Part shown: positions 1 to 64,000 of the stretch, piece after piece | How positions within the stretch are numbered: position 1 is the first letter of the stretch | Layout of the letters: every line of letters starts with the position of its first letter | Source of the DNA: a virus | IMG/VR virus record: IMGVR_UViG_3300028805_000116 | DNA: 64,000 bases | Strand: one strand, 5' to 3' | Position numbers and translations under genes: made by a program | Notes under the pieces: generated by a model | What the model saw: the letters and a program-made list of their open reading frames with translations, nothing else | The model's database searches: none | Told to the model about the DNA's origin: nothing

Positions 1-843
1 AAAATTATATTTTTCTTTTATTTTAAAAGAATATCTTTTTAATTTATTATTAATATTTGTATTTATTTTATTATATTCTTTTAAATGTTTATTTTTAAAT
101 TCTTTTAAATTCTTTATATTATTATTATTTTCTTTAATTAATAATAATTTAAATTTATAATTTTCTTTATTTAATTCTTTATCTAATAATAGATTATAAA
201 TATTTTTTAATTCATCTTTAGTTATTTTATTATATTCTTTAATATAATCTAAAATATATTTATTATTAAAATTTTCTAAAAAATTACTTTTTAATTCTTT
301 AAAATTAAAAGTATTTAATTCATCTAAAGTTTTTAAATCTTTTTTAGAATATAGACTTTTTATTTTACTATTTAAATATTTTAGATTTAAAAAATAATCT
401 TTATCTAAAAAATTTAAAATAAAATAATTAATAATAGATTCATAAATACTTTTATCCATTGAATCTAGTTTTTTTCAGACTTTATCTATATATTTTTTAT
501 CATTTATTAGATTTATTTTATTTTCATCTAGAATTTTAATAAAATTTTCTAGATTATAAATATTAAAAAATTTATTTTCTAAATTTTCATCTATTAATTT
601 TTTTCTTTTTTCTTTATTTTCTTTAATATCTATTTTATTATTAATTAAATAATCTAATTCTATTAATTTATTAAAATTTTCTAAATTTTCTTTATTTTCA
701 TCTAAAAATTTATTAATATTTTTTTCATCTATTTTATTATATTCTTTTAGATCTATTCAATTTAAAGAATAATTAATTTTTAAATTAGATTTATATTCTA
801 ATAATTTAGAATTTTTAGATTTTAAATATTTTTTATCATACAT
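1..843 (-). CDS. Hypothetical Asn/Lys/Ile-rich protein, 3' part running off the left edge of the window. Region is ~12 % GC. In-frame TGA codons (reverse-complement 'tca') are read as sense.
   Basis: ATG at 841-843 on the minus strand. The frame stays open to position 1 only if TGA is read through. Composition is completely unlike the rest of the window. Confidence 0.35.
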
Positions 844-882
844 TTTTATAATAATTAAATAATAAAAAGTTTTTAAATAGTT

Positions 883-1107
883 TTAATTAGTTTTTAATAC
901 TTTAATTTTTTTAGATTTTTTATTCATATATTTATAATCTAATAAATATTTATCTATTATATTTATATTTATTAAATAAGTATTAAATAAATTTAAATAA
1001 TTTTTTTTATCTATCATTTTATTATTAAATAAAATTTTTAATTCTTTTATATCTTTTAAATAATCTTTTTTTAAATTATATAGATTTAGATATTTTTTAA
1101 TATTCAT
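883..1107 (-). CDS. Small hypothetical AT-rich protein (74 aa)
   Basis: ORF in the six-frame track ending in a genuine TAA. Same orientation and composition as the flanking AT-rich ORF. Confidence 0.35.
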   Translation of the reverse strand: MNIKKYLNLYNLKKDYLKDIKELKILFNNKMIDKKNYLNLFNTYLININIIDKYLLDYKYMNKKSKKIKVLKTN

Positions 1108-1435
1108 CTTTTTTAAATTAATTAAATAAAAATAAAATTTTCTAGAATAATAATAAAACTTTTAAAGAAAATAAAGTTTTTTTATATACTATATATTTTA
1201 ATATTTTTTTCATAAGTCAAGTATGAATAAATAAATATTATATCTGGATTATTTATATATTTATTATATCTAATTGCAAGAAAAAAAGCAAATTTTTATA
1301 GACTTTTTTATATTTAAAAATATTAATTCTAAACTAGACTTTTAAAAAATCTAAAAAGATTTTTTTCTAAAAAGATTATATTTTTAAATAGATTATTATT
1401 TTTATTTAAAACAATTCTAAAATATAATCCATCTA

Positions 1436-1478
1436 AAAAATAATCTATCTAAAAAATAATCTATCTAAAAATATTTTT
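1436..1478. repeat. Tandem direct repeat, 2 copies of aaaaaataatctatctaaa
   Basis: Two identical adjacent copies in non-coding AT-rich DNA. Confidence 0.6.
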
Positions 1479-1519
1479 TATTAAAATTTTTTTTTCTAAA
1501 AATAAAAACTTTTAAAGAA

Positions 1520-1800
1520 AAAAGACGGGATACAAGCACCCAAACCCCCCTATATGAGCTTTTTGTTGGGGTGTTATACCTTTCTTACAAAATTCACTCT
1601 TTCATAAAAACCCACTCTCTCAAAAAAATACTTTCTTTCAAAAATACACATCTCATCAAAAGAATATAACACCCAATAAAAAATAACCCATATAAAAAAT
1701 TCACTAAAATAGTGAACTTTTCAAAAAAGGCCCCATACATATTAAAAGGTACACCTAAGTAAAGGAGGGCCAATATTATATATCAATCTTTAAAAATGTC
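1520..1800. promoter_or_regulatory. Non-coding, comparatively GC-rich structured region with C/G runs, repeated ttcactc/cccactctc words and a perfect palindrome TTCACTAAAATAGTGAA (1708-1725). Candidate origin, att or operator region.
   Basis: No ORF in any code. Compositional break between the ~12 % GC flank and the ~33 % GC phage body. Inverted and direct repeats present. Confidence 0.35.
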
Positions 1801-1824
1801 AATACCTGTAAAAAGAGATAATAT

Positions 1825-1849
1825 AAAAAAGCTACTCAATGAGAGTAGC
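1825..1849 (-). terminator. Rho-independent terminator for the leftward operon
   Basis: Hairpin gctactc-aatgag-agtagc preceded on the plus strand by A6, which gives a hairpin followed by T6 on the minus strand. Confidence 0.45.
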
Positions 1850-1923
1850 GAATGAGGGATTTATCACATCCTGTATAAAGGATGCGGAATCTCTTTAAAT
1901 ATGGAAGAAACCTTTTTAAAGGT

Positions 1924-2160
1924 CTACTTCAGGGAAGCAAGATACTCTTCCCAAAAACCATTCTTTCAGAAACATAGAATATGTCTTTCACATCTTAAAC
2001 CATATTGTATGTAGTCATCTTCTATATCATCTATTAGATGTCGTCAGAATGATTGGAGGGTAATTAACGCATTTGTTAATTCTTCTGTTTCAACTATTAA
2101 ACTATCCTTTGTCTGAGAAAGGATTATAGTCTTATCAAAGTCTATTGTTCTCTCTGTCAT
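1924..2160 (-). CDS. Hypothetical protein, ~78 aa (MTERTIDFDKTIIL...)
   Basis: Minus-strand frame with ATG at 2158-2160 and TAG at 1924-1926. In-frame TGA read as Gly. Confidence 0.4.
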
Positions 2161-2178
2161 AGATAGATAGTTTAAGAA

Positions 2179-2958
2179 TTAAAATGCAGGTGTATAGGAT
2201 GATGATTTGTAATCACTATCATCTTTTAAATATTCTCAACCCTTGTAGTAGAGTTCAATCTCCTTATCAGGGGTAAACTTATCTTTCATAAGCTTATACC
2301 TCCTATAAGGTACACCATCACAATTACTATCCTTTTCAATTATTATGAATACATTAGATAGGTCCATTATCTTCTGAGTTCATTCCCAGGTTCAATGTCT
2401 ATTGGTGTGGTGTAATACCACTATAGCTATATCTAACTTTTGTGCTAACTCCTGTAATACAGCCATACATTTATTTTGACTCTCCCTAGCATCGTTAGAC
2501 ATATTGTTACCTATTCTAGAGAAGGTATCTATTACAAATAATTCGTAACCCATCATAGCCTTTTCATTTAGAAGGGTTTCTAAAGCATCTAATGAAATTC
2601 ATTGTGCATTATTGTAATAATCAAATTTCTTAAGCATAGTATTCACATAGTTTTGCATATCATTCTTTTCATAGTCTGATAGTTTGTTTAAATCTGTCAA
2701 AGCATCTTTACCTTTTCAATGGAACCGTAACCGTCTTGACTGTCGCATCGTCTCGATAGGAAATTCCAGGTTAATGTAGAAACCTTTTCTTCCTCTCTCA
2801 GCATTTTTACTAATTATATCCATTGCGAAGGTAGTCTTTCAAGAATTACTCTCAGCCACAATAGTGACTAATTCTCAGGACATAAAGCATCAGAAATCAT
2901 TAAAATTCTCTGATGGGTATATGAATCCTTTTTTTGTTTCAAATTGGTAGTCTTTCAT
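2179..2958 (-). CDS. RecA-family ATPase, Sak4-like, ~259 aa. Walker A VTIVAESNSGKTTFAMDII. Walker B LFVIDTF. Also IVVLHHTN.
   Basis: Hand translation of the minus strand. The glycine of the Walker A GKT is encoded by TGA. Bounded by TAA at 2971-2973 upstream and TAA at 2179-2181. Confidence 0.7.
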
Positions 2959-2984
2959 TTTTGTTGGTGGTTATGGGGTAAAAG

Positions 2985-3887: not shown

Positions 3888-3892
3888 CTTTA

Positions 3893-6138: not shown

Positions 6139-6139
6139 G

Positions 6140-8293
6140 ATGGCATATGGGTTTTTATATAAAGACTTTGATGCAGACAGGGGGCTATTTTATAATGGAC
6201 AGCCACAGAACTTGAAATATGTCCTAGACCCTAAAGAAGCAGAACAATGGTATGAAAAACACAGAGAATTAATGGTGTCTGTGAATATTAAACGTCCACC
6301 AGATTTAGAAATCCCTGTTCAGATACCATTAGGTACAGGTAAACTCCTTAAACAAGATATAGATGAAAAGTTTTTATCCTTTATCACAAAGGGAGCTGTA
6401 TCAACCCGTATGGAGTTCATCTTATCAAGATTTATGGATAACTATCACCTTGGTACAGATTGAACCTTTTACAGGAGAGAGAAGGAAGATGTATCAGCTT
6501 TAGATAGTACCAGAAATGTCCTGGCACTGTGTATGATGAAAGATATTATCCTATGAATATTTAGGGTTACTCCTTTAAAAATCCCAGCCTGAAAGAATAA
6601 AAAGAACCTTTGAAAGATGGAATATATTGAATGGGATATTGGTGAAGACTTTTCTATTGACTACGAGGTTCAATGAACTAAGTTTACCACAAACCTATTC
6701 TGAGTATATAAGCCTAAATTATTTGAAGCTATGCTTGCAGATACCTGAAGGACATTTAACGGATTCTGTTTACAGCGTTGGCAGATGATGGTTTGGCTCT
6801 TATCAGGTTGAGTTACCTATGTAATTTGACCAAGGTGATGAGGTAAATCATTGTATATTAACGGAGATAGTGCGGGGTATTTACTTAAAGAGATAACAGA
6901 TAGTAATGAACGTATTCAAGAATTTTCAGTTCTCTATATGGGATTATCGCAAAAGCAGAACGCACCATATATGGTTTACTCTCAACAAATGCTTAATAAT
7001 CTTATTGATTTGCCGAGTTTTTGTAACAAGTTACCTGATAGTACAGGTTTATACATCCTCGACGGAGATAAGCAGAGAAAACTTGAATATGTTACAACTA
7101 ATCAGAATGACCCTACTAGGTCAAGACGTACAAGAAAATTCGTTTGAGATGAAGCAGACTATCTTGACTGGGACTATGTAGGTACAGCTATGGCCACAGC
7201 AGATTCATTAGTTACATTAATCTCTACTATCGGTCCTGATACACAAGCTTGAAACTTCTATAAAGGTTGGCTTAATGCTTATAAAAACCAAAGAGATTAT
7301 GAACCTATAGATGTACTTATTCACGATATATGGATTAAATACTGAATGCACCTATGTAAAAGTAGAGCTGATTATATAAAGAAAATTAAGAATTGAGATT
7401 TTGAAAAAATGAGAGCCGAGTTTATTCAGCGTCGCCCAGAGGTAGCCTTACATTTTACTATGGATGATGTTGAGTTTCTTACAGAGGAACAGAGAACAGC
7501 TCAGGTAATTAGAGTTCTAAACGCTAGATGATATGACTATATGCTTGCCGAATACTATGGAGAATATTCCACAGACCAAACTGTATTCAATATTGAGTGA
7601 GTGCAGCTAGCTTGTCCTAGCGATTGTGACTATTGGGTAGTTGGTTATGATGAAGCCGATACCTTCGACAATCCTTGATTATGTATCCTTTGATGTAAAG
7701 ATTGAAAGTATTTCATTAAGGAAACATATAACTTAGCAAAGGAGAGTAATGAAAGATTTGCTAAGATGAAGAGTATTATAACCGATTACAAAAATAAATG
7801 AAAGCCAGTTTACCTTGTGCTTGACGCTTCTAGGTGATGGGCCGCAGCAAGGGAATTATGAATGTTATGAATGCCTTGTGATATGCTTATCAAATGGACA
7901 GGTAATGTTACTTATCAACCTTGAGCTAGGCATAATGTAGGTAAACAACGGTGTATAGAAATGATTAGAAGCAGCTTCTTTGATACCAACCTTATTCATA
8001 TTGACCCAGCTTGTTATGGAGAATGAGGATTAGTTGAGGAGTTGTGACACTTTAAAAAATATAAATCTTCAGCTAGAGGTGAGAAGAAAATTCACGATGA
8101 CCAGGTTTCAGGAATGATGCTTGTGCTTTATTTCGCCTGGTTCCACGACCAGCTAGCAACTAAAGATGTGAATAAACTTTGAAATCAAAAGACTAATGCA
8201 CAAATAGCTGAATGACTTTGGGCTGAGAGATACCAGAAGCCTAAAGAGACAACTTGAGATTTTCTCTCAAATTTAAAGAATAATTTATTCTAA
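6140..8293 (+). CDS. terL: Terminase large subunit, ~717 aa. Walker A VIGPRGGGKS with three TGA-encoded glycines. Walker B KFVGDEADYLDWDY. C-terminal nuclease-like region HDDQVSGMMLVLYFAW.
   Basis: Single frame 6140-8293 joins track ORFs 6128-6463 and 6851-7147. Only TGA interrupts it. Terminates at TAA 8291-8293. Confidence 0.8.
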
Positions 8294-8334: not shown

Positions 8335-8338
8335 AAAA

Positions 8339-8641: not shown

Positions 8642-8664
8642 ATTTATATCATAGTATTTTCTAA

Positions 8665-11600
8665 ATGGGAGTTTGGGATAAAATAAAAAGCTGAGCTAGA
8701 AGTTTGTGGAGTTGAGTAAAAAATTTCTTTTGAGCTTGAGATAACTACGAAGAAGCCGAAGTAAAAACTCAGGAAAACGAAAATAATAAGCAAACCCTAA
8801 ACCAGCAAATACAGAATTGAATATTAAATAGTAATACCACCAACAATACCAACAATACACCAAGCTATAGAAGTGCTATCGCAGACGTTAGAGATAATCT
8901 ATGACAACAATGACAAGAAATAGATACAGTTAATAATCCTATACAGCAAAATACTCCAGAAGTAGATAAAGAAAAAGAACCAAGTATTCTAGATATATTC
9001 ACATCTTGAGAGGCTAGAAAGAAGTTATGGAATGATATTGTTGATGCCCCAGTAAACCTTACTGCACGGTGAGCTAAGAAAATCTGACAATTATCAGACT
9101 TTGTTTGAGATGTCATAGATTCCCGTAGAGCTACAAGTGAATATAATGAGAATGAAAATTTAGTTGCTGTTGGGTATAATAAGGAGAATAAAAATGTACA
9201 GTATCTAGATTTAAACGAGAGCAGATGATTATTCGATAACGACTGGTGAACTAGGAGTTGAACTAGAGATTTATATGATAAATATATGTCTGAATGGTTA
9301 AATACTCTAGATACTCCAGGAATAACTGAAGAACAAAAAGACCAAGCACTTCTTGATTTCTACGATAAAGCCAAAAACTTATTCAGGATAAGAGAGGATG
9401 ATTATTATACAAATTGATTATTTTCTGATTGATTATACCACAGAAGATATGAAATGTATACAGAAGATGAGTTAGAAAAATTATCAAAAACCTGAGACAG
9501 AGAATGAAGATATGTACCAACGTTTGATGAATTCTTAGATTTCGTTTGAGCAGATAATGCTAATAGAGCTAAGAAACAAGAGATATTTGAAAAATATTGA
9601 TTATCTGGAGAAGATGCAGAAGAATGAGAAGATACTGAATTACTTAATTTATCAGAAGATTTTCAGAGCAATTGGAAGTCTAATCTATTAAAAATTGGTA
9701 CACAGGGGTTTGATGAATATTTTGACCCTATGAGAACTGTAAACTGAAATGCTTGAACTGAAGTAGAGCTTTATGCATATTGAATTTTAAACGATAGACT
9801 AGATGCTTTATACACTAGGGTTGCTCCAATATATAATGCGGAAAGAGAAATTCTTAAAAGAGATAAATCTACACGAACTACTTGAGATAAATTCATAATA
9901 GACACAGCCAACAGATTTAGAGAAATGGAGAAGGCTTATGTTGATTGAATTAATGATTGGGTAAGGCAACAAGCATTATACTGAACATCTAAGGATGGGC
10001 ATATGGTTAGGATGCTAGATGTCTTCGAAAATTGAGAATCTCTTGCAGATGTGTTAAATAAAGAAGCTATAGAAGCAAGTTGACAGGAATGGAATCCTCA
10101 TTTGTCTATCCTAGATATTACGGGTAGAATGGCAAATGAAGCATTATATAGCTACACAAAAGACCATAATACTTGATTTTGGGCTCCATTAAAAAACCTT
10201 TGGTCTGATGTTGAATTGTTATTTGAGCCAGTAGGTAGAACATTATGAGAATGATGACAGGCATTATTTTGAATAACAATGGATACACTAAATGGTATAG
10301 TTACTTGACACGATTGAAAATTTGCAGACTATCAAGACCAAGATTTCTCTACTTGATTTATGCTAGAAACTGATGATAGTAATTTTGCTAGAACAGTTAA
10401 AAAATATGCTGTTGAAATTGGAGAGGTAGCGCCTGAAGCATTATGAAACATCGCTCCAGATGTAGCATTAGCTATGGCAACTTGACCTTGAGCTTTAACT
10501 ACAATGGCTAGACACGCAAAGGATTTAAGTAGAGTATATAAATTATCAAGGGAAGCAAAATGAGCTAGTTTCTTAAGAAAAACTTGGGCTGTATTAGCTC
10601 AAAACCCTGCGAAAGCAAGTAGAAGTTTATGACTTGATGTAGGTAAATATACTCAGATTATGTCGACTATTAAAAGCGCAAAGAATGTACCACAAACTTT
10701 AAAGACTTGAGCAGAATTACTAGATAGAGCTACAACTCAATTAGCATTATGACAGTTTATGGATTGACAATGGAGTGCTTATGATACCGAACCATATTCA
10801 AATGCTTCATTCATTATGTCTATGGTATGAAGTACAGCATTCGATGTATTCCCTGAATTATTTAGAGGACTTACCTGAAGATGACGATGGAACACTTTAA
10901 TATGAGATTGAGCCTGAGGTAATATATGGAGTCTTGCTAGATATATAGATAGTTCGCCTGAAGCGGCAGAAAATGTAGCTAGGGCTTTATGAAAGAGGGC
11001 ACAAGATATTTGAGTCGAAGATTTAAAAGCTTATGCTAGAAATTTCTGAGCAGTAGAAGAAGCTGCAAAAAAGGTATATAATCAATTGAGTGATGCTGAA
11101 AAGGCAGCGTTAGGAAAGATGACTAAATCTTTAACTTGGAATTTTATATCTCAAGCGTACTGAGCTAATTCAAATATAGGTAAAAATATCAGACTTATAT
11201 TGGCTAATGGTTCTACAAATATAGCAGATGTATATAAATATCTAGGTAAGATACCTTGAAAGGTGTCTATATGACCATATGTCTCTACTATACAATTAAA
11301 AAACTGAACAAGTGTTAATGTATTATGAACTTGAGAAAAATGAATGTATAATCCAAAATTGGATTCAATATATTCCTGAAATTTTACAACTAAACTTAAT
11401 GATTGATTCACAGATTGAGATATATCTAAATTAGGTAAAACTGATGAATTTGGTGAGTTAAGTAAAAATAAAGATAAATATTTTTATAAAGTTTGAGATA
11501 GATATTATCTAAACGAAGAATGAATTAAGAAACTTTGAATGAAAGCAGAAAATTTAACTTTAGAAGCTTTATGAGTTTCTTTAGCTAGAGCAGAAGATGT

Positions 11601-11733
11601 TAAATGAATATTTAAAGAAAAAATGAAAAACCTTAAAAATAACAACCTTAAGCCTGATACGGTAAATGCAGTAGCAGATACCTGAGCTTATGATGAGGTT
11701 GTATATAAGGTAAAAGAAGTTTTATGATGTTAA
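8665..11733 (+). CDS. Large hypothetical virion-associated protein, ~1022 aa. Portal or other head protein possible.
   Basis: Stop-free frame (TAA/TAG) from ATG 8665 (preceded by in-frame TAA) to TAA 11731-11733. Frame arithmetic is consistent at both ends. Dozens of in-frame TGA. Confidence 0.5.
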
Positions 11734-11743
11734 TATTAATTTA

Positions 11744-14700
11744 ATGGCAGTACAAGATTGTGATGATTTATCAAATATTATTGCTATATGAATATTGTCT
11801 TGAGATGATGATTTAGCTAAAGAGATAGTTAGGCTATCCACACAAAAGAGAGATTCGTTAGTTCGTGCTGGTAAACTTAAATGAGAAGATGCTGTGGAAG
11901 AAGCTACTTGACGAAGTGCTCACGAACTTGAATTAAAAGCCAATTCTGCTGATATAGAGCTCAGAGCTATTGTTCAAGCCAAAATCTTAACTTGAGAAAT
12001 TTGAAATGCGGAAGCGTATGTTGCTTTAGCAGAACAGATAACAAAGTCAGGATGAAGTATGTCTCAACAAATTAGTCTTTTAAATAAATTAAGAAGTGCT
12101 AAGGTTACAGATTTACAGGATATTGCTAAACTACGGTGATGAGCTTATAAAAATTATCCAGCTAAAGCTAAAAAAGAAATGGAAGAAGCTATAGCATCTA
12201 CTATTTCGGCTAACTATAGTATTAGAAAATATTCTGACTTTATGAGTTGAGAAGTTTCTGATTTAAAGACACAACTTAAAAATAAGAAGATAACTCAAGA
12301 ACAATATGAAGAGCAGATGAAATGACTCCATAAGAAGGTTATGGATAGAATAAACGCTTGAGAAAATCCAAAAGATTTTGTCCCTATTGATAAAGAATGG
12401 GATACTATAAAAAGAATTTACTCTACAGAGAATGTAGATTCTGATGCTATTACTGAAGTATTAGAATCCAGATGAAAAGCCTGGGTTCAATATGTAGCAG
12501 CTAGAGAATTATTAGCTGACTGAATGGTTGACGATGAATTACTTAAGGCTTTCGAGTCTTTGTTTGAAATGGATAATTTAGTAGGAGAATTAACTATTGA
12601 TGATATTGCTAAATTCTGAAAATGAGACTTAGATAAATTATTAGCCTTAGCCTTTACAAATACAGAACAATTATATAAAGATTGAATGCTAAGAGAGGCT
12701 TATAGAGCTAAACTTGTTGAGGTAACTTCTTGAATGAAAGTCTCTAAAGAGAATATAGCTAAAGCTACATCTATTATGAATACGATAGGTTTTGCTGAAC
12801 AATGAGCTTCCTTTGCTGATATAGCTACAGCTGACGCCGCAGCGCGTGCGGCTAGAAAGAGATGATTTAAGGTAAAAGATTGAAAAACTTTCTTGAATTC
12901 CTTAAAGTCATTCTTGAGAAAAGAAGAGGATAAAATGTTTGACTGACCTATTGTTATCGATTGAATAGAGATGACGGCTAAGGATATTATCCAAATTATA
13001 TACGATATAACTTGAGATGAAAATATCCTTAAGTTAATTAGAATAGGGTTTTATTCAGACGAAACTATATTATCTATTGCTACATCTAAATTGTTTAATG
13101 ATTCAGATGATGCTGCAAAGAAAATATTAAAATTATTTTCTAAGGCTTGAGATTGAAACACAATTGCCAATACTAGGAATATAGCTTTAAAAGCTATCAC
13201 TTGAGAAGAGATTAGAGAATGAGCAAAAATTGGATTCTTTAATTTTAGAAAAAATCTCTATTTTAAAGATGAATTAGATAGTGCTAAAGCTGAATTCTAT
13301 GATAAGTTAGCAGATAGAAATAAGATGAAGGTAGATTCATCTGATATTGAAGATATAACTCTAGATACTGATGATGCGGACAAAATAGCAGACAAACTAA
13401 GAAAATTTAAATGAGGGTATATTATTGTAAACGATGCTAGATATAAGACTAATAAGGCATTTAATGACGCTCTTAATAAGGTTAATAGTGAAATCAAGAA
13501 TGAAGAGGATAAGATAACTTGTATCTTTCCTAGATGATGAATGTCCTCTAGTTTTGTTATGGAATGAAAACAATTATACTTTAAAACTACAAACGCTAAA
13601 ATTTTCGATAATGTAGCTTGAACTATATCTATTCAATCTATGTGAAAATCTAGGCCGACAAGAGAAATTATTGCTAAAGCTTTTGAGGCTAAGACAGGTA
13701 AAAATGGAGATAAACTTAGATACCAGGCTAGTTATACTAAATGAGTATCTGATAGTCAATGAAGAAAACTTTCAGACCAGCAATACGAATATTTTAAAAA
13801 TTCTGTTGTGAGAGATGAGAATTGAAATTTAACCCCTGTATATCATTGAACTGTGGATAGATTCAATATCCCAGATATGTGAAAATCTAAGTTTGCTGCA
13901 CATTGACCTTGAATGTATTTTTCCACAAGTAGAGATGCTGCAGAAACATATTCTAGATTAAAAGATAATCGCTGGAACCCATTTAAGAAGCGTAGAATAA
14001 TAGAGGCATATCTTGATATTAGAAATCCTATAACTGAAGATACTGTTTGATTCGATGATGCTTGGTTAAATGAATTAGAAGCTCTATGATATATTATCGA
14101 TAGAGATATGGTTAAGAGACAGAAATGAAAGGTAAAAGATATATACAATGTTCTTTATATGTTTCAAGATAAAAAGAAGCAATGACAATTTGTTACAGAC
14201 TTTAAAAGGGTTACTTGATTTGATGGTATCAGAATAGATATGCGTTGAGATGAAAAGTATTGGATAGTATTTGAAGCTAATCAGGTAAAGTATGTAGATA
14301 ATAAATTACCTACAAGTAAGCCTAATATGAAGTATCAGGGAAGGGACAGTAATTTATTGTTTATAGAACAACCTACAGAAAAAGAAATAGATGATTACTT
14401 ATCTGAAAACAACGTGTCAGATATATTATTAAAGAGATTTTGAGAAGCTAAAAGTTTAGACGAGTGATTATTTATTACAAGGGATTGAAAAATAATTTCT
14501 TGAAGATATAGACCAGATATATATCCAGTTAATAAAATTTGGGATGATGCGTGATACAAATTAAATTTAGAACATCCTACTGCTATAGAAACTGCCGTAT
14601 TCGATTTGTGGAAAAATGTGGGGAAGGCTGACACGTATGAAACTGCATCTAAAATGCTTTTGGATAGAGCGATGGAAAAAGAATGATTAATCCGCATTCG

Positions 14701-17700
14701 CCCAAGAATTTTGTCTGATTGAAATGAGCTTATTATTACTATAGCTAGTAAAGAATTAAGCCCACAACAAAAGGCTGTTCTTTCGGAATATATTTCAAAA
14801 TTTAAAGAAGACTTTAGGGAATGAACTAGATGACAGATTACAGTAGAGGCCCAACGGACAGACAATAAGGGGATGTACCCTGGCGAGACTATTAATGTAG
14901 GCTTAAATACCAACATTAACGATATTGATAAAGTATTAAAAGAAAAAATAAATTCTCAAATTAGTGAGCATATTCCTGATGAACAAGTTTTAAAAAATAG
15001 AGCTAAACAAAAGGAGACTTATTGAGAAGGAATATCATTAATAAGGCTATGAGAAAAACAACCATCATTTATGAGACGTTTAGATGATTATGTTTCTCAG
15101 CAAGATGTAGCAGCAACTGATGCTATGAAGGCGCAGATGTTTACAAAAGATAGAACTGTTCAAGAAATAGCTGATGCTTATTGAGTATCTGTTGAGTTTG
15201 TAAAATGAACTAATATGATTGCTTGAGTTGAGGCTTATTGAGCGTATTGAGATGGTATTATCTATTTCACAGATATGGTTAAGGAGAGTACAGCTCCACA
15301 CGAATTGTTCCACGCCATATTTGATATGCACGTAGGTAAAGAACAACACGATAAATTACTCAAACAATGAAGTAAACTCTTCAATGTTAGTGAAGACGAA
15401 ATGGAGGAAATAATGGCAGATAGTTTTGCTCATTGGTTTAATACTTGAGAGTTTATTTACTGAGACGAACTTATAAAGGCTGCTAAAAAGAAGAGACCTA
15501 ATAAAGCAGAAAAATCATTTATAAATAAGGTATTAGAAGTCTTTAAAGACTTAAAGAAATGGTTATGATTAATGGATGACCATAGGGCTGAAGTTAAACA
15601 GATGTTCGACGATATGGTAAATATGAAATATCTACCAGACGCTTGAAAAGCTGTTGAAGCTACGGAAGCTATGATTAAATATAATGATGACTTGGAGAAG
15701 GCTGCTATAAAATACTACTGACAATTACTTTGAGATTACCAAGAAGACTTATCTCCAGAATATATTGAAAGGATTCGCACGAAACTTTCAGAAAAAACTT
15801 GAATTGATTTTAAATCTTTTGACCAAATCCAAGATAAGGCTCTACTATGGCAAAAGGTTGATGAAGCTTTTGTTGTAGATAAATTAGTTTCAGGTAGATA
15901 TGATAAAGAGATTGTAGATGTAGACAATTTAATTAATTGAATAGAGAAACTTACAGATAAAGAGTTAGAGGATGTTATATTCAAAGATTTATGAGTTTTA
16001 AGTAAATGATGAAAGGTTGTAGGTAGAGATACTATTGATGCAATAAGAAACGCATATATAGATTATAAAACTGCCTGAAATGCCGTAGATAGTTTAATAG
16101 CTAAAGGTAAACTTACAGCTTATATACATTGAACTGAGGCGCAGAATGTATCTATGGAAGATATAAGGGCAATATTCCAGAATTGAACATTCGCTCAAAA
16201 ATATAAAGAAATGTTCTTCCCTAATCAAAAACTTACAGCAAAAGAAGAACAAGAGATAATAAAACAAATCAATGATAATATATTTGATACTTTATCAATT
16301 CAGTTTGCTGAAAATTTAGTATCAGCTTGATATGAATTGCCTTTGATAAATATCAAAACATTTATGTATGACTATTTAAATTGAAAGTTAGACTTAAATA
16401 ACAAGTTTGTTGAAGCATTTCTTTATAAAAATAATATTCCATTTTCATCCGATTGATTAAGATGAATTGTAGATAGTTTAATGCCATCAGAATTAAACTT
16501 CAACTATAATTTCTCAAATTATTCATATTGACTTGGGCAAAGGCCTCACGTCTGAGAAAAGGCTGTGTTCAAGGAAGTTGATAATAGGTTTGTTATGGAC
16601 AGTTATTCAGCTTTAGCCTGAATAGAATTAGCTGCTAAGTGATGAATTCCTGAAAATGAGGAAAGGAAAATATTAGAAGAAATCCTTACTAAATATGTAA
16701 ACGAGGTAATTAAATGAGTCAAAGATTGAACGTTAGATTTCAAATGAGCTCAAGAATTAAAACAAGAAGTATGATATGCTTTAGATATGTTTGAACAGGA
16801 TATATTATTGCCTAAATATGGTATATTCTTATCTCCTCAAGAAAAGCAATGACTTATAGGAATGAAATATGACTTGCCTATTTGAGTAAAATGACAAAAC
16901 ATAACTAATGTGACTAAGCAGCTAAACGACATAAAACAGAAGCTCTTAAATAAATATGATAATACGCTATGAAGTATAGTAGAAAATAATGATATTAATG
17001 AAGCAATTCTTAAATGAATTAAAAGTGAAGATGAAAGAATACAAAAGAAAATAGATGCTAGAAGAGATATGTTAGCTGAGAGGTGATGAGTTATCAGAGA
17101 GGTTAATTGACAATATTTGGTATATAATGCTAAACAGGCATTAGAATATGCTTTAGAAGATTTGCCTCCAAGTATTAATTGATTAGAATGACTTAGAGTG
17201 CTATGAAAAGAATGAATTGATAAATTATCTAATCAACAGGCATATGCTTTACTTAGATATATAGAAGCTGCTAAAAGCCTAGATGCCACAGCTTGATATG
17301 CTATAGAGCTTATGTATAAACAAAACCCTATGCTACTTCAATATAATTTCTTTGAAGCATATAGAGTATGAGACCAATGAATTCCTAAAGCATTAGAATG
17401 AAATTCATTAAATTTTGACAAACTATTATCTAGATTAGAAAATACAGCTAAGCTTGATGAAACATCTAAGAAGAATATATTTGAATGAGTTATTAATAAG
17501 TTTAGAAAACAATGATATGTTACTAATGATGACTTAGATGATATTATTGATAAGTGAATAAAAGAAGCATACGCAACATATAAACAGTCGCATATGTCTC
17601 CTAAAGAGATAAAGAAAGCCGTAAATAAAATGAAGAATATTTACAAGAAAGCTTTCGCTCCTTACACTTATTTAAGAGATATTCCTTCTTGAGGAACTGT

Positions 17701-20700
17701 AGATTGAGTAGAATTCAGGAATATAAAATCTAAAGTAAGGGAGGCTATGAAACAGCAATACAATCAAGCTATGGAAGATTTAAAGTCGGTATGAATTACA
17801 AATACGGATTGAATTCAAGATACTATATATCTCACCCTTCCAACTTGACAGAAGATGTCTCTTAGAGATGCTTCTACATTAGATGTTGATAGTTGGAAAA
17901 AATGAATATTTAATGATGAAAGTGTTTATGTAGCTTGAGCTGATGAATTATGAGCTGCTTGAAAGAAGACTGTAGAAGAGCAAAAGGAGTTCAGGAAAAC
18001 TATGGTTAACGAATATGACTCGACATTACAGACTATACTGAACCAATCTCAGTTTATTAGCGAATCAGAAAGAGCATTACAAGGTTCTATTATGAGTGAC
18101 GTAAGGGCTATGTTAAGACAATGAAATCTTACAAACTTAATAGTAGATGCTTTAGATGCCGTAAGTTGACTTAATGAAGAGGCTGCTAGATGAATAAAGG
18201 ATTATCTTATCTGATGGAAGTGAAACGTTTCATTCTGAAAATGGAAGTCTTCTCAGATTATAGAGAGAAATGAATTAGTAAAGAAAGCATACGCACAATA
18301 TTATGCTATGGATTTGTCTAAACTTAATAAGGTAACTCCTTGAACAAAAGCAGAAGACTTAGCTTTAAGATTAGCAAGATACTTTAAAAATTTGGAAAGA
18401 TTATTAGGTAGTGCAGATTGAGTAACTTGATGTACTACAAGTAATCAATTAAATAGAGCGTTCTTCCATATAGGTGAAGTTGTTATGAATGTGGATAGTG
18501 TAAAGTGAATTTTCTGATTATTATCTGCGGTAGAACAAAACCAGATATTAAAGTTGTTTAAGTTTGCTAAGTGAGATTTAAGAAAACAAGCTGAGGTATT
18601 TATTCGTAAAGGTAAAGGTAATTTTACTGAGAGCCTTTGATGATATAGAGACTACGCAGAAGATATTAGTTGAATTACTAGAGATGAGTTCAATGAGATT
18701 TTCTGAACATCATTTAACGAGGACGATTTTAAGAAAATACTTCAATGACTTACAGGTTTCTCATTGGTATGATGAGTTACTAAACCTGTTATGAAAGCAT
18801 TGAATTTCTTGAGCTGAACTAATTTCATATTTAGAGCTGCAATGTCTTACCCTTGACAGCTACTTACAATTCCTTTACAAAGCACAGCATATTTCTTAAA
18901 ACAGATATGATTTGAAAGAGCTTTGGATATTGATAGCTTATCTGATATTGACGAAGTTAGAGTTCATTATTGAATTTTGGATTGAGCATATAACGAAATT
19001 AATTGGTTTAATAAAAAATATAGGGTTAGTCCAGATGATGTTAGAGTAGATAGTTACTATAATAGGTACTGAATCCCTGATGTAGAATGAATTTATAAAA
19101 CTACATCCATAGAGAGCAGTGATGATTACATAAATATGTATGCTAAAATTAATAATCAAACTGCATCAAGTATCAGTTCTACAAATAAATGGATAAGACA
19201 ACTAGACCCATATAAAGATAATGCAAATAACATTATAGACTGATTATTCGCTAGAAACTTTAAAAACATAGCGTTCCAAAAAGCTATAAGACAGAATGAC
19301 TTTATGCAATTTTCTTCAGCAAAAGAGTTCTTAGCCTTTATGGAAGACCCTACGGTATGAGGTTCTGTAAAGCAAAAACTATTAGATAGAGTTGCTGCTT
19401 ATTCAGGTAGAAACTTTAGAAATATCCTTTGATTAGGATTCTGATGAATTGATAGAGCTGTATGATGAAGTGGATTTGGAAACATAATGTACTGACTTAT
19501 GCAGATGTTTAACTTTAGATGAAGTTGGTGACAGAATATATTTAAACAAGCTTGAGCTGCTATTAAGACTTGACTAAAGATAGTGAAAGCAAATCCTTGG
19601 TTAAGTAGAGAATGAAGAGATGCCGTTGGTAGATATATAGCTACACAGCCAGAATTTATGAATTTTGTCTGAGCTTTATTTAATGACTTAAAACGAAGTT
19701 GGAGGTTACAAAGATTCCAAGATAATTGAAGATGGCCAGATAACGAAGATATGTATGTGACTACAGAGTTCTGAGATGTATTTGACGCATATTCAGCTTT
19801 AGATTTTATAGATTACTTAACAGAATCTTTAAGTCTTACTTCACAATTATTCCAGTGAATACAATCATTCTGACCTGCTAGACCAATATTAGAATGAGTA
19901 GAAAGCGCATATAAATCATATATGGACCCTACAATTTATAAAGATACATTCTGAATTTGAGCTTTCTTTAATGCTTTATGAAAGAACTTCTGAAGACAAT
20001 GGAAACCACATAACTGGATTGCTAAAGCATTATGAGCCTTAACTACAGATTGACCTGAGGCATTCTGGACATATGTACAAAATGAATGGTATAAATTATC
20101 ATTTGGTTCTGTAAGGTATATGGTTAATGAAGATAGTAATTCTTATGGATATACTTTCGAAATGACTTGACAACAATGATGAATTCCGTCTATTATAATG
20201 TGAGAATGAAAACAAGGTTCTGATAAAAATTTCTCTTATGAAATAGATAATACAGAGACTTGGGAGACTATAAAACAATTATTTAGTAGCTGAAACTCTT
20301 GGGACGATAGACTTACATATGCCTGAAATCTTTGAAAAGCATTTGTTAACTGAAGTCAGTTCTTTAGTTTATGGAAGAATGCTTGAAAGGCTTGGAATAG
20401 GAATGCTCCAAGTTATTATACAGCAGATGATTTAGCAGATGTTTTACAAAATACTGAAGCTTGATTAGAGTTTTACCAGAAATGAATTGTAACTCCTAAA
20501 ACAAAAGAAGAAGCTGAGATATTCTTTGATACAATATTAGAAAATTCTAAGTTCCGTCCTTGAAGTAGTAATTTTACTAAATCATTAATCAATTATGAGG
20601 ATTATTGACATATGAATGGTAAAGAGAAATGAAATGAAGCTGATGCTGAAATGGAACTTTGGCTAGACCATATGAAACACGTAACTGATGACCATTGAGT

Positions 20701-22095: not shown

Positions 22096-22419
22096 ATGTC
22101 AATAGATGTAAATCAGATGGAAGACGATGTTCTAACAGAACACGTTGCTCCAGAGAATGAAAAGGCTAGGGAAATGCTGGACAGATTATGCCAAGAAGAA
22201 ATGTGAATGTCTGCTCAAGAGCTTTACCTTAGATGAATTTTACAAGAGATTAAATATCTACAAGATAATGCCAAAGATGGTAGCGATAGAGAAAAGTTAT
22301 TAAAGTACCTCAAGGAGGTAGATAATATATGTTGATTCTCTAAAGATAAAAGGGATGTAAAGATAGAAACTAAGTTACGTAGTGCATCCGACATTTTTAA
22401 TTCAACTAATCTAAATTAA
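22096..22419 (+). CDS. Hypothetical protein, 107 aa
   Basis: ATG 22096, TAA 22417-22419 overlapping the next start (taATG). Confidence 0.5.
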
Positions 22420-47381: not shown

Positions 47382-47888
47382 ATGTCTTGAGAATTCAGTG
47401 CAGCTGGTGCCGTCGCTAGTGTAGCAGGGGGGATAACGCTTGCTTCTGTACTAGAATATCTACAATTAAGTGGAGAAGTTTATGCTATTTTTGCAGGGCT
47501 TCTCTTTTTAGATTTTGTCTTTTGAATAGCTGATGCTTATTTTGAAAATAAACAAAGTGTAACTTCAACAAATGCTTGGAGAGGAATATTTAAAAAATTC
47601 TCCAAATTAATGCTCCCCTTGATAGTAATATTTGTTTTAAAATGAGTTGGCGCTGAGGATATATCTATGTTAGTGACAAGTGTAATGAGTATATTAATCA
47701 TAACAGAGTGATACTCTATTATCTGACATATATATTCAATTAATACTTGAAGCCACTTGTCAGAGATAGATGCCTTTTCTTTGCTTATAGAATTTATCGC
47801 TAACTTATTTAAGCAGAAGCTACCTAGAAAAGAAGAAAATTTAGAAACTATTAAAGAAGATGAGCAAACCACACAGGATAACCATTAA
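47382..47888 (+). CDS. Holin, 168 aa (phage_holin_4-like: ...YAIFAGLLFLDFVFGIADAYFENK...)
   Basis: ATG 47382 to TAA 47886-47888. Membrane topology and sequence resemble the LL-H/phi-29-type holin family. Confidence 0.55.
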
Positions 47889-48273: not shown

Positions 48274-48498
48274 ATGACAACAATTAAAGATGTTGAACCA
48301 GTAGAAGTTTTATGAACAGATTGAAAAATTTACAAAAGAATGCCTTGTGAAGTTTACACAAGAGTTATGGGTTATATCAGACCAGTAAGTTGATACAACC
48401 CTTGAAAGAAAAGCGAATTTTATGGAAAGAAATTTTTCGAAGAAAATAAAGTTTCAAACTCAGATTTTATCCGTAAATATTGAAAACAAGATGCCTAG
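48274..48498 (+). CDS. Stand-alone NrdD-like glycyl-radical module, 74 aa (...CEVYTRVMGYIRPVSGYNPGKKSEF...)
   Basis: ATG 48274 to TAG 48496-48498. Matches the class III RNR C-terminal motif RVxGYL...(F/W)NxGKxxE. Confidence 0.5.
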
Positions 48499-60551: not shown

Positions 60552-60876
60552 CCTTCAATATTTTTCTTTCAAGTCTACCGTCCCCCAATTTATTTCTGCT
60601 AGCTCCTTCATTGTGTTATATCGATAATCGTACCATTTAGCTTTCTTATCTACACTAGGAGTGAATGGTTTAAATCGTCTCATTATCCTTTTACTAACTC
60701 AATAAAATCATCTAACTCTTTATCAATCATTCATCTTATGATATTCTTCAATTCCTCATATTGAGTGATTTCTGGATTATCAAAAGATGGTTCTCATAGG
60801 TGGTCTAGATTAGCATAGGAATCAACCACATCCATTATTTCATTAGCTAATTTTTCTGCTATACTTATCATTTTTA

Positions 60877-61656
60877 TTGCATCATCATTATAAATGAACT
60901 ATCTTCTCAGGCCATAGTTACAGGTAATTTACCATCCCATCTTTCAATCCATTTTAATTTTACATATTCAGCACCTCATTGGTTTTGAATAGCTTTAGCT
61001 TGGATTTCAATAGCCTTAGCTTGCGCCTCAGCTGCGACAACCTTTTGGTCAGCTTCATACTTTACTTTCTCTAGCTTATTCTTTTCGGCAAGAGCATTCT
61101 GTTCAGCGGTAACCTTAGCCTCAATTGCATCGTTGAATGATTTACTAAAGTTAAAGTTTACAATATTGAATAACTGAATTTGGACTCCGTATGGTTCAAG
61201 CCTTTTGTTCAATGTTTCTTCAATGTTTTTAGATACATCACTTCTTTCAGTAATCAATTGCTCTGCTGAATATTTAGCGACTACTGCTTTAAATACTTCT
61301 TGAATAGCAGGAGTAATAATCTTTTCAGCTACTTTTTCTTCTTTACCTACATTCTTGTATAGGTTTACTACTTCGCTTTCCTTGTACTTGTAGTTCACTA
61401 CTATTGTGGCACCTACACTCTGCAAGTCTTTTGAACTAGCATCAGCTGTAGCATCTAATTTTTGCGTCTGTACATTATATTTTACAGACTTAGTAATGAA
61501 TGGAGTTTTAAAATGTAATCCATCCGTGTAAACAGTACTGTTAACTTTTCCTAGTGTAACAGTAAATCAGTTGTATCCAGGTTCAACTACAAACCAAGAG
61601 TTAAAACCACAGATTACTAACAAGAGTATGACAATACTCCAAACAAATTTTTTCAT
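60877..61656 (-). CDS. SPFH/band-7 (prohibitin/stomatin-like) membrane protein, ~259 aa. N-terminal TM helix MKKFVWSIVILLLVICGF. SPFH core includes ...ITPAIQEVFKAVVAKYSAEQLITERSDV...AEAQAKAIEIQAKA...
   Basis: Track ORF 60976-61425 extended upstream to ATG 61654-61656 and downstream through TGA to TAA 60874-60876. No TAA/TAG in frame. Confidence 0.5.
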
Positions 61657-62246
61657 AATGTATATTGGTAAAAATATAAAAACTAATATTTAGGATGAGG
61701 CAATTTCCTTATCCAGCTTTTAAGCCAATCGCTTATCCATTCACTAAATTCCATATCTGAAGCAAGGTCAATCACAACAAATAAAAAGAGTAATCAAACA
61801 ATTATAAGTCCTATCATAGGTCCAGTTCAACAGTCTTCACACATAGTAATATAATTAAGAAATAAAATTATTCTTTATCTAATTTTTTATGTAGCCATTC
61901 TTTAGCTCTATCCTGTATGATTTCTGATAATTCCCCACCAAAAAGTCACAAATCAACTATTATAAATATCACAGAGAGAAATCCTCCAATAAGGATTATT
62001 GCTACTACAGTAAGAAAAGTTCAAAGTATTAGTCACATAGTAATATAATTAAGAAATAAAATTAATTTTCTTTTGGCTTACGTTCATCTAACCAATGCTT
62101 AGTCCAAGCCTTTAGATAATCTGAAAGGGCTCAACCTAATAACATATCATCTACAACTCCTGCTAATAATAATGTTAGGAGTAGTATTATAGGTAGCATA
62201 AATATAACGAATATCATTTGTATATAATAATAATATAAAAGTCTGA

Positions 62247-62519
62247 TTACTCTCACTCTTTAATTTCTTTCCTCATTTGATTTTTAACTTCATCATACCA
62301 TTTAGAATAATTCCATTCTTTATATAGTGCCATTTGATTAGAAGTTGGCGATAGTAAATAAATCTCTGCTAATCTTAACATAAGTTTATCTTTCAGCTTT
62401 TTATTTTCTTCTTCTAGCATATCTATATACTTATTCATCTTGTCCAAAAACTTTTTATCTTTTTCATCTTCACAGATAAATGAATATCTTGTTTTAGTCC
62501 AATTACTTTCTACTTTCAT
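62247..62519 (-). CDS. Small hypothetical protein, 90 aa
   Basis: Track ORF 62253-62519 extended by two codons through TGA to TAA 62247-62249. Confidence 0.4.
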
Positions 62520-62549
62520 TTTTAAAAGTAAATAATATAAAAGTCTGAT

Positions 62550-62742
62550 TTAGTCTGCATTTAGAATTACAACATCTTTTAATGCACCTCAATTTTCCAT
62601 ATCATTTACTCGGTTCTCTTCTACACTTTCTAATGTGGTAGCCTCATACTCACTCTTAAAACTACCATTTTCTCGGTATATCCATACCTCTTTATCTTGT
62701 GGCATTTTCTGTAATTTTTCTATAAGTTCTTTTACTGTCATT
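62550..62742 (-). pseudogene. Small gene MTVKELIEKLQKMP|QDKEVWIYRENGSF... disrupted by a 1-nt frameshift near 62697-62703
   Basis: The N-terminal 16 codons are in one frame and end at TAA 62692-62694. The rest continues seamlessly in the -1 frame to TAA 62550-62552. Confidence 0.35.
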
Positions 62743-64000
62743 TCCTTTAGGTAAATAATATAAAAGTCTGATTTAGTCTAAAGCTGAAATTACGTTTATA
62801 AGTAAACATACAAAAGCAAACAACAACACTAATGGAACTCATACAATAGGGCATATAACACACAATGCTGTCATAGCAAAGGCTGCCACAAATATACAAA
62901 TAGTAATTAAAAGTCAGATTATTATTTTCATTTCCATAGGTAAATAATATAAAAGTCTGATTATAATGTAATAATATCTCCATCAACAAGGAACACATCA
63001 AATACATTATCTACTTTAATATGTTCGACTTTACTATCCCATCTCCTGATGTCTGGAATTGCCATATTCCAAATCTCTCCTAATTCATATTCAAACGAAA
63101 ATCATAATTCTGATTTCTTTTCTTTCCATCCCCACCATTTCTTGTAGTATGGTTTCCAATATTCTCAACCAGTGACTATATGGTTTTTGAATTTTTTTAA
63201 TCTTCGTTTCATACTTTAATATTACTAAGTAAAAAATCCTCTAACTTATCTTCATCACATAAGGCACTTTCTATCAAGTAGTATTGGTATTCATTTTCTA
63301 ATATACATCTATCTCAATTGGTTTTCCCATCTCGTTGCCAAATATGTTCTTCATATCAAGGTCTTTTTGGTCGCATTCCATTCTCACACACGAATTGCCA
63401 TAGTCAGCTTTCTTTCGCAACCAATGCTCTAATAGATTTTTCATAAAAAGTTAATCAGAATATAGTTCTTTTAGAAAAACTAATATATTTAGTTGTATAA
63501 TAAGCATTTCTTAAATGTGGTATTCATCGTGGTTTCCACCCTCTTTGGATAAGTCTATTCAATAGTTGTTCTAATTCGTCTACCATAGGTTATAAACTAA
63601 GTAAATAAATAACAGTTTCTCCTGCCGCTACACTAATAAACATCCCACCTAATACAAACCACCAAGTGAATAAATCATATTTGCATTGTATATGCCAACA
63701 TATAAAAAATACAATCATTGAGACAGATACTCAAGTTATAAATATTTCTCTTGTCATAGGTTATTAAATTAAGTAAATAAATCTGACTACTCTCTATAAT
63801 CATCATAAACCTCTAATGTCCATTGTCATTTTATATCTTTACCAATTATAATTTCATAATCTTTTTCCTCTACAAGTTTTAATAATTCTTCAAGAGTATT
63901 TATCTCTATATCTTTATATTTTCAAAAGTTATGTGTATAATGTAATTTGAATTTCATTCTGATTTTTATTTAAGATATGAAATAAGGTCTTCAATAGGTG

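What the first reader, a model, noticed from the sequence alone, without database searches (positions are those of the whole stretch)
1..64000. The whole element is recoded: TGA is a sense codon, most plausibly glycine (table 25), pointing to a phage of Gracilibacteria/Absconditabacteria-type CPR bacteria
The standard-code six-frame track contains essentially no ORF longer than 150 aa except one 447-aa stretch. Reading TGA through gives uninterrupted frames of 2.1 kb (terminase), 3.1 kb, 4.7 kb and 10.2 kb that terminate only at TAA or TAG. TGA falls at invariant glycine positions:
- the terminase Walker A reads VIGPRGGGKS, with three consecutive TGA at about 6827-6853;
- the RecA-like Walker A reads AESNSGKTT, with a TGA at 2839-2841 on the minus strand;
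- in self-aligned tail-fibre repeats (36000-38400) TGA columns align with G, A or S, never with aromatic residues (DTTISGKA vs DTTIA-TGA-KQ, QDGTIS vs AD-TGA-KTIS).
This argues against TGA=Trp (table 4).
Basis: partly seen in the sequence, partly recalled or inferred. Interest (0 to 1): 0.9.

Follow-up and report, generated by a model that had tools for sequence, protein, structure and literature searches.

The report
Absconditabacteria-type recoded phage genome
This 64-kb stretch is most of a tailed-phage genome in which TGA encodes glycine and, additionally, CGA/CGG appear to encode tryptophan, which is the code predicted for Absconditabacteria (SR1); such phages are already described, so this is a new member with one possibly unreported twist.

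Summary
Under the standard code the longest ORF is 447 aa. Reading TGA through gives ORFs up to 3,412 codons, about 90% coding, and every gene ends in TAA or TAG.

TGA is glycine, not tryptophan:
- GGN is only 2.7% of codons, TGA 4.85% and TGG 1.22%.
- In 23,521 codon pairs aligned with relatives, TGA pairs with GGN 296 times and with TGG 8 times.
- Pfam scores rank G > X > W in 7 of 7 families.
- A relative carries a tRNA(UCA) with the glycine identity set.

This matches the CGA/CGG→Trp reassignment predicted for Absconditabacteria, so table 25 alone mistranslates 59 codons.

The lone 447-aa standard-code ORF is the putative capsid gene. It avoids TGA because of strong optimal-codon bias, across the whole clade.

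Code-25 phages assigned to Absconditabacteria were already reported (Borges 2021; Liu 2023). My verdict is a new member of a known kind. I found no earlier report of the CGA/CGG→Trp signal in a phage.

The parts
1..64000 (.). Recoded phage genome segment. About 90% is coding when TGA is read as sense. The structural and lysis arm is on the + strand (4.5-50.2 kb). The replication/early arm is on the - strand (50.5-63.6 kb and 2.2-3.9 kb).
6140..8293 (+). Putative large terminase (P-loop NTPase), with 30 TGA codons. Walker A lies at 6821-6850 with TGA at 6827, 6836 and 6839. Walker B reads 'V-TGA-DEAD'. A CGG at 7949-7951 aligns with Trp in 72 of 76 relatives.
   Evidence: There was no Pfam, PHROG or PDB hit, so the function is inferred from motifs and position.
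2179..2958 (-). DnaB_C/AAA_25-like ATPase. The Walker A glycine is encoded by TGA at 2839-2841. CGA at 2743-2745 and CGG at 2731-2733 and 2725-2727 are TGG in relatives.
11744..21952 (+). 3,402-aa polyvalent protein with an ART-PolyVal domain (residues 691-857). It has 210 TGA codons.
   Evidence: In one search the domain scored 72.3 bits with TGA=Gly, against 56.3 or less for nine other residues (Trp 47.3).
8665..11733 (+). 1,022-aa protein of unknown function, with 71 TGA codons. It is conserved next to terL in all relatives.
22419..24461 (+). Portal protein, with 25 TGA codons.
   Evidence: phrog_156 and phrog_332, E about 1e-8
25723..27228 (+). Putative major capsid protein. This is the lone 447-aa standard-code ORF. 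Only 2 of its 46 Gly codons are TGA, it has no CGA or CGG, and it shows strong optimal-codon bias.
   Evidence: The capsid identity is inferred from position and expression signature; the AlphaFold model was poor.
34805..39538 (+). Tail fibre (Phage_fiber_rpt) with internal repeats in which TGA and GGN alternate at the same columns, for example 35552-35737 versus 37391-37576.
47382..47888 (+). Holin (Phage_holin_4_1). It scores 36.4 bits with G and 26.5 with W.
48274..48498 (+). Small protein resembling the C-terminal glycyl-radical segment of NrdD.
60874..61656 (-). SPFH/Band-7 protein. It is shared at 75-92% identity with many other TGA-recoded phage contigs.
2985..3887 (-). DUF6291 protein. 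It scores 80.8 bits with G and 68.6 with W.

Best explanation
The window is about three quarters of the genome of a tailed phage; relatives are about 82 kb. The phage is written entirely in the genetic code of its host, which is most likely a member of the Absconditabacteria (SR1, Patescibacteria).

What is shown:
- UGA is an ordinary glycine codon. It supplies about 64% of all Gly codons.
- CGA and CGG read as tryptophan.
- Only UAA and UAG terminate genes.

What is inferred:
- The phage is translated by host machinery that lacks RF2 and has tRNA-Gly(UCA) and Trp-type tRNAs for CGR.
- Some clade members add their own tRNA-Gly(UCA).
- UGA is a non-optimal Gly codon, so the most highly expressed gene (the putative capsid) replaces it with GGA. 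That is why one long ORF survives under the standard code.
For: ORF structure and coding density.

Composition: GGN 2.7%, TGA 4.85% and TGG 1.22% of 18,939 codons. Gly is about 7.5% only if TGA is Gly.

terL family, 71 full-length relatives:
- Window-TGA columns hold table-4 'W' or G.
- Window-GGN columns hold G (47%) or 'W' (41%).
- Window-TGG columns hold W (87%); Gly is absent from every per-column tally.

Codon-level alignment, 24 genes against 11 loci:
- TGA with GGN 296 times; TGA with TGG 8 times.
- CGA/CGG with TGG 47 times; with other Arg codons 3; with Lys 3.
- Other Arg codons with Lys 283 times; with TGG 6 times. Fisher p = 3e-44.
- TGG appears opposite window CGA/CGG at 14 or more independent sites in 9 genes.

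Pfam scoring: G > X > W in all seven families tested, AAA_25, DnaB_C, KaiC, ART-PolyVal, DUF6291, holin and NRDD. G was best of ten residues by 16 bits.

tRNA: relative L014 has a tRNA(UCA) with G1:C72, C2:G71, G3:C70 and U73. This is the rule used for tRNA-Gly(UCA) in PMC8629427. Its tRNA-Trp(CCA) has A1:U72 and G73.

Capsid-gene codon bias: TTC 0.92 against 0.36, ATA 0 against 0.46, GGA 0.78 against 0.13.

Host: a relative's contig sits in a Ca. Absconditabacterales MAG. The literature reports code-25 phages assigned to Absconditabacteria and CGA/CGG→Trp in Absconditabacteria.
Against: - There is no tRNA in the window itself. The tRNA(UCA) was seen only in one relative (L014) and not in L017.
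- I obtained no direct host link: no CRISPR spacer match and no host genome.
- Two relatives' contigs are binned in Methanobrevibacter MAGs.
- The CGA/CGG=Trp inference rests on within-clade codon exchange only. The one Pfam test available was neutral.
- Codon-pair counts are not phylogenetically independent.
- The terminase and capsid functions are inferred, not shown by HMM or structure.
Confidence: 0.87

Rival explanations
1. TGA encodes tryptophan (table 4). This would fit a Mycoplasma-type host or the code-4 gut phages described by Borges et al.
For: Public gene callers translated all relatives with table 4 and obtained full-length proteins. The low GC content (32%) would fit Mollicutes.
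Against: - Trp would make up about 6% of residues and Gly only 2.7%.
- TGA pairs with TGG only 8 times, although the two differ by a single transition, while TGA pairs with GGN 296 times.
- W gives the lowest or near-lowest Pfam scores.
- The tRNA(UCA) in L014 has Gly, not Trp, identity elements.
Confidence: 0.01
2. The phage infects a standard-code host, such as a Firmicute, a Bacteroidete or Methanobrevibacter. It would impose UGA=Gly itself, using a phage-encoded suppressor tRNA.
For: Relative L014 encodes a tRNA(UCA) within a cluster of 8 tRNA genes. Contigs of relatives are binned in Methanobrevibacter MAGs. Recoded phages of standard-code hosts do exist.
Against: - 54 of 55 ORFs, including every replication/early gene, carry TGA. 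One 3,402-aa protein has 210 TGA codons.
- Code-switching phages leave many genes unrecoded: 26-71% of their genes are recoded, against about 90% in code-25 phages.
- The tRNA(UCA) is absent from the same region of relative L017.
- CGA/CGG=Trp cannot be imposed against host tRNA-Arg, and I found no phage tRNA for it.
- Similar low GC content explains mis-binning with Methanobrevibacter.
Confidence: 0.04
3. The host is a Gracilibacteria (BD1-5) bacterium rather than an Absconditabacteria one.
For: Both lineages read UGA as Gly. Some Gracilibacteria were predicted to read CGG as Trp.
Against: CGA as well as CGG exchanges with TGG. Joint CGA+CGG reassignment was reported for Absconditabacteria. 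The only CPR bin holding a relative is Absconditabacterales.
Confidence: 0.08
4. The window is not a free phage. It would be a prophage, or a piece of an Absconditabacteria chromosome.
For: The 110.6-kb source contig carries an integrase/HTH module, and a second copy (98.8% identical) of window 1-3731, at its other end.
Against: No housekeeping gene was recognised in the window. Many relatives are separate contigs of a consistent 72-83 kb. The content is typical of a phage: portal, tail fibre and holin.
Confidence: 0.05

Closest known systems
[quoted passage not shown] Absconditabacteria or Gracilibacteria (Borges et al. 2021 preprint, 10.1101/2021.08.26.457843; Liu et al. 2023, PMC10746230)
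   Same: TGA is read as Gly and in-frame TGA occurs in about 90% or more of genes. The coding density collapses under table 11. The samples look animal-associated, judging only from their names. The inferred mechanism, reliance on the host's code, is the same.
   Different: This ~82-kb clade gave no match in IMG/VR or GenBank phages. Those papers used table 25, and in the passages I read they do not mention CGA/CGG→Trp.
The Absconditabacteria genetic code predicted by Shulgina & Eddy 2021 (PMC8629427): UGA=Gly plus CGA/CGG=Trp
   Same: The same three codons behave the same way here. CGA and CGG are similarly rare: 23 and 8 per 10,000 codons. The same tRNA-Gly(UCA) identity rule is met in relative L014.
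   Different: That work concerns bacterial genomes. Here the signal comes from phage genes with no bacterial homologues. I found no phage tRNA for CGR.
Phages predicted to read AGG as Met, like their recoded Bacilli hosts (Shulgina & Eddy 2021)
   Same: A phage follows a host's sense-codon reassignment and relies on host tRNAs.
   Different: The codon, the amino acid and the host phylum all differ.
TAG→Gln and TGA→Trp recoded gut phages of standard-code hosts (Lak, crAss-like, Agate, Jade and others)
   Same: Stop-codon recoding, low GC content and suppressor tRNAs in some members.
   Different: Those phages keep many genes, mainly early-expressed ones, free of in-frame recoded stops and are proposed to switch code mid-infection. 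Here every module is recoded and the capsid gene is the one that avoids the recoded codon.

Membership tests
Genetic code 25 (UGA=Gly) | In-frame TGA is frequent in genuine genes, and only TAA and TAG terminate them | tested here: met
Genetic code 25 (UGA=Gly) | TGA occupies conserved glycine positions and is interchangeable with GGN | tested here: met
Genetic code 25 (UGA=Gly) | A tRNA(UCA) with glycine identity elements (G1:C72, C2:G71, G3:C70, U73) | tested here: inconclusive
   Met in relative L014. There is none in the window or in L017. The host's tRNA set was not available.
Genetic code 25 (UGA=Gly) | Absence of release factor 2 in the translating cell | not testable with these tools
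   No host genome was linked to the phage.
Genetic code 4 (UGA=Trp) | TGA aligns with Trp and is synonymous with TGG | tested here: not met
Absconditabacteria-type code (UGA=Gly plus CGA/CGG=Trp) | CGA and CGG occupy Trp positions, not Arg positions | tested here: met
   from within-clade evidence only. The Pfam test was neutral.
Absconditabacteria-type code (UGA=Gly plus CGA/CGG=Trp) | tRNA(UCG) or tRNA(CCG) with Trp identity | not testable with these tools
   None was found in any phage locus scanned. The host genome was not available.
Phage of Absconditabacteria | A direct host link: CRISPR spacer match, prophage junction or Hi-C contact | not tested
   The only evidence is indirect: the shared code, and one relative's contig binned in an Absconditabacterales MAG. 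Other relatives are binned in Methanobrevibacter MAGs.
Code-switching recoded phages of standard-code hosts | An early gene set free of the recoded codon, plus code-change genes (suppressor tRNA, RF, aaRS) | tested here: not met
   54 of 55 ORFs carry TGA. No RF or aaRS was recognised in the proteins scanned. A tRNA(UCA) occurs only in one relative.
Tailed phage (Caudoviricetes) | Portal, terminase, HK97-type capsid and tail genes | tested here: inconclusive
   Portal (PHROG), tail-fibre repeat and holin (Pfam) are met. Terminase and capsid are recognised only by motif and position.

The most novel reading that the evidence does not exclude
This clade may give the first phage-level evidence for the Absconditabacteria sense-codon reassignment CGA/CGG→Trp. 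That reassignment has so far only been predicted computationally from bacterial genes, so these phage-specific genes would corroborate it independently. The data would also show that, within this code, UGA is a disfavoured glycine codon that selection purges from the most highly expressed gene, while some clade members carry their own tRNA-Gly(UCA).
Probability: 0.55. Interest if true: 0.6.

Novelty: new member of a known kind. Interest (0 to 1): 0.45.

Why it matters
There are four reasons this matters.

- Annotation: table 11 destroys this genome, table 4 puts Trp at about 920 glycine positions, and table 25 still puts Arg at 59 probable Trp positions. Public protein databases hold the whole clade in table-4 translation, and at least one 76-kb relative sits in GenBank as part of a Methanobrevibacter MAG.
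- Host prediction: a three-codon signature (UGA, CGA, CGG) is a far more specific host marker than UGA alone.
- Code evolution: phage genes give an independent test of a predicted bacterial sense-codon reassignment.
- Codon usage: the data show how expression level shapes the use of a reassigned stop codon.

Tried and rejected
- PDB sequence searches with the DnaB-like protein, the NrdD-like peptide, terL (single sequence and profile) and the capsid profile gave nothing usable.
- Scans of IMG/VR with terL and the capsid protein, and of GenBank phages by DNA and by protein, found no relatives.
- Rfam found nothing in the window.
- The AlphaFold2 model of the capsid candidate was too poor (pLDDT 51) for a fold search, so I did not run one.
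- Paralogue alignment within the window was too noisy to decide the TGA residue. G tied with T, though W scored 0.
- The Pfam R-versus-W test at the three CGR codons of the DnaB-like protein was neutral.
- PHROG and Pfam do not recognise terL, the capsid or most other proteins, even in the Gly translation.
- I considered horizontal acquisition of the capsid gene from a standard-code phage and rejected it. All 73 homologues belong to this clade, and TGA depletion holds down to 47% identity.


Full report
**Observation**

The window is 31.8% GC. Under the standard code, stop-to-stop ORFs of at least 100 aa sum to 5,135 aa, and the longest is 447 aa. With TGA read as sense they sum to 25,867 aa, with ORFs of 3,412, 1,579, 1,022, 777 and 728 codons. 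Making TAG sense gives no comparable gain. A non-overlapping set of 55 ORFs covers 90% of the window. All 54 complete ORFs end in TAA (46) or TAG (8). 54 of 55 contain in-frame TGA. The small corrections are listed in the observation check.

**Which amino acid is TGA?**

Five independent lines point to glycine.

1. Composition. In 18,939 codons, GGN is 2.7%, TGG 1.22% and TGA 4.85%. Only TGA=Gly gives normal Gly (7.5%) and Trp (1.2%) contents.

2. Orthologous columns. A protein search found 83 terL relatives in ENA and Logan metagenomes, all translated by their callers with table 4. In an alignment of 71 full-length members:
   - window-TGA columns hold 'W' (57%) or G (22%);
   - window-GGN columns hold G (47%) or 'W' (41%);
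   - window-TGG columns hold W (87%), and Gly is absent from every per-column tally.

3. Codon-level comparison. I used the DNA of 11 related loci and 24 window genes, giving 23,521 aligned codon pairs. TGA pairs with TGA 701 times, with GGN 296 times and with TGG only 8 times, although TGA and TGG differ by one transition. GGN pairs with TGA (296) more often than with GGN (214). The invariant Walker A glycine before the lysine is GGT in the window and TGA in L007 and L008.

4. Profiles built from other organisms. Pfam bit scores rank G > X > W in all seven families hit:

   | Family | G | X | W |
   |---|---|---|---|
   | AAA_25 | 50.5 | 42.8 | 40.7 |
   | DnaB_C | 37.1 | 30.7 | 25.9 |
   | KaiC | 31.8 | 24.0 | 20.8 |
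   | ART-PolyVal | 72.3 | 50.1 | 47.3 |
   | DUF6291 | 80.8 | 72.1 | 68.6 |
   | holin | 36.4 | 30.2 | 26.5 |
   | NRDD | 25.7 | 23.5 | 22.4 |

   Of ten residues tried in the ART-PolyVal segment, G wins by 16 bits.

5. Internal control. In the tail-fibre repeat pair at 35552 and 37391, five of five variable Gly columns swap TGA with GGN.

**tRNA evidence**

The window holds no tRNA. The collinear 83-kb relative L014 carries a cluster of 8 tRNA genes, at a position just beyond where the window ends. One of them has anticodon UCA. Read directly from the sequence, it has G1:C72, C2:G71, G3:C70, U73 and an encoded CCA. This is the rule Shulgina & Eddy used to call tRNA-Gly(UCA) in Absconditabacteria and Gracilibacteria (PMC8629427). 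The neighbouring tRNA-Trp(CCA) has A1:U72 and G73. Relative L017 lacks tRNAs in the same region, so the gene looks accessory.

**An extra reassignment**

While tabulating Trp columns I saw that Arg was the only recurrent non-aromatic alternative. At codon level:
- CGA/CGG pairs with TGG 47 times, with CGA/CGG 36 times, with other Arg codons 3 times and with Lys 3 times.
- The other Arg codons pair with Arg 600 times, Lys 283 times and TGG 6 times. Fisher p = 3e-44.

Site by site, 14 or more window CGA/CGG sites in nine genes are TGG in at least one relative. Only two are AGA and none is Lys. The single CGG of terL (7949-7951) is W in 72 of 76 relatives.

The window has 44 CGA and 15 CGG codons, rare like those reported for Absconditabacteria. 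Shulgina & Eddy predicted exactly this, CGA and CGG→Trp, for Absconditabacteria, with only CGG in some Gracilibacteria.

The evidence here is within-clade only. The one Pfam test possible was neutral. I rate this at about 0.85.

**The exceptional 447-aa ORF**

ORF 25723-27228 follows the portal and a scaffold-like gene, and I take it to be the capsid protein. It uses TGA for 2 of 46 glycines, against 66% in the other ORFs (binomial p = 1e-18). It also shifts many other codon families:

| Codon | This ORF | Other ORFs |
|---|---|---|
| TTC | 0.92 | 0.36 |
| ATA | 0 | 0.46 |
| AAC | 0.58 | 0.24 |
| GCT | 0.89 | 0.58 |
| AGA | 1.0 | 0.62 |
| GGA | 0.78 | 0.13 |

All 73 homologues are from this clade. 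Their 'W' counts are mostly 3-13 (one has 19), against about 35-49 G, so TGA depletion persists down to 47% identity. This is translational selection on a highly expressed gene, not a code boundary or a recent import. It also explains why NCBI's table-11 annotation of a 76-kb relative recovered this protein (MBO7691753.1, labelled Methanobrevibacter sp.).

**Host and setting**

The scan of one genome per GTDB species found two relatives' contigs. One is in a Ca. Absconditabacterales MAG and one in a Methanobrevibacter MAG. The latter is most simply mis-binning by low GC content, because a standard-code archaeon cannot translate these genes. Sample names such as XIEF21 and TONG22 suggest ruminant gut studies, but that is my inference and is unverified. 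The combination of UGA=Gly with both CGA and CGG=Trp points to Absconditabacteria.

**Comparison with the literature**

Borges et al. already reported gut phages using code 25. Some had Absconditabacteria as predicted host, and about 90% of their genes were recoded. Liu et al. 2023 described some 50 spacer-linked Absconditabacteria phages, most of them code 25. The finding is therefore a new member of a known kind. It belongs to a well-populated clade (more than 80 relatives) that is absent from IMG/VR and GenBank phages. My searches found no paper reporting CGA/CGG→Trp in phages. The nearest precedent is AGG→Met phages.

**Source contig**

Locus L019 is 100% identical to window 49362-64000 and runs 2.8 kb further to the end of a 110.6-kb contig. 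It passes a tRNA-Trp(CCA) and an odd tRNA-like gene. The other end of that contig holds a 98.8% copy of window 1-3731 next to integrase and HTH genes. I did not resolve this arrangement.

Noticed in passing
window 25723-27228: The putative capsid gene uses TGA for only 2 of 46 Gly codons and shows strong optimal-codon bias in Phe, Ile, Asn, Ala, Arg and Gly. The TGA depletion is conserved across the clade. Within this code, TGA therefore looks like a disfavoured Gly codon.
   Followed up: yes
window-wide; for example 7949-7951 (+) and 2725-2745 (-): CGA and CGG codons (59 in total) exchange with TGG, not with Arg or Lys codons, in relatives. This implies CGA/CGG=Trp, as predicted for Absconditabacteria.
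   Followed up: yes
window 1-1500: This segment is about 9% GC yet carries real minus-strand ORFs: a 363-aa product running off the window start and a 74-aa product at 883-1107. Both are extremely Lys/Asn/Ile-rich. Assemblies of close relatives break at this point (L001 starts near window 1730).
   Followed up: partly
L019:527-599 (about 2.2 kb beyond the window end) and L014:7958-8031: A conserved tRNA-like gene with a 6-nt anticodon loop (GCUUAG or AACGGA) lies immediately upstream of tRNA-Trp(CCA). ARAGORN cannot assign an anticodon. Its function is unknown.
   Followed up: partly
L014:5155-5643 and 5592-7850: The relative carries a block of six tRNA genes: Ser-GCU, Gln-UUG, Gly-type UCA, Ile-GAU, Glu-UUC and Arg-UCU. 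Next to it is a 752-aa AAA_33/Metallophos/RNA_lig_T4_1 protein, a Pnkp/RNA-ligase-type tRNA repair enzyme. This suggests a defence against host anticodon nucleases.
   Followed up: no
L021 (record 1-11522 of ena:ERZ27256871:k141_1027000) compared with window 1-3731: The 110.6-kb source contig holds a second copy, 98.8% identical, of the AT-rich-ORF/DnaB-like/DUF6291 module. It is followed by HTH_3, HTH_39 and integrase genes that are absent from the window. This could be two related elements in tandem or an assembly artefact.
   Followed up: partly
L011; P0127 (MBO7691753.1): Contigs of this phage clade, one of them 76 kb, are deposited inside Methanobrevibacter MAGs and annotated with table 11. 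This is probably mis-binning by low GC content.
   Followed up: partly
window 60874-61656; L013: The SPFH/Band-7 gene has thousands of homologues, including 75-92% identical copies in other TGA-recoded phages. One of these is an integrase-bearing element (L013, GCA_002631825.1). The gene seems to circulate among phages of this host group.
   Followed up: partly
window 48274-48498: This 74-aa ORF matches only the C-terminal glycyl-radical segment of anaerobic ribonucleotide reductase NrdD (Pfam positions 532-560). No full nrdD gene lies nearby.
   Followed up: no
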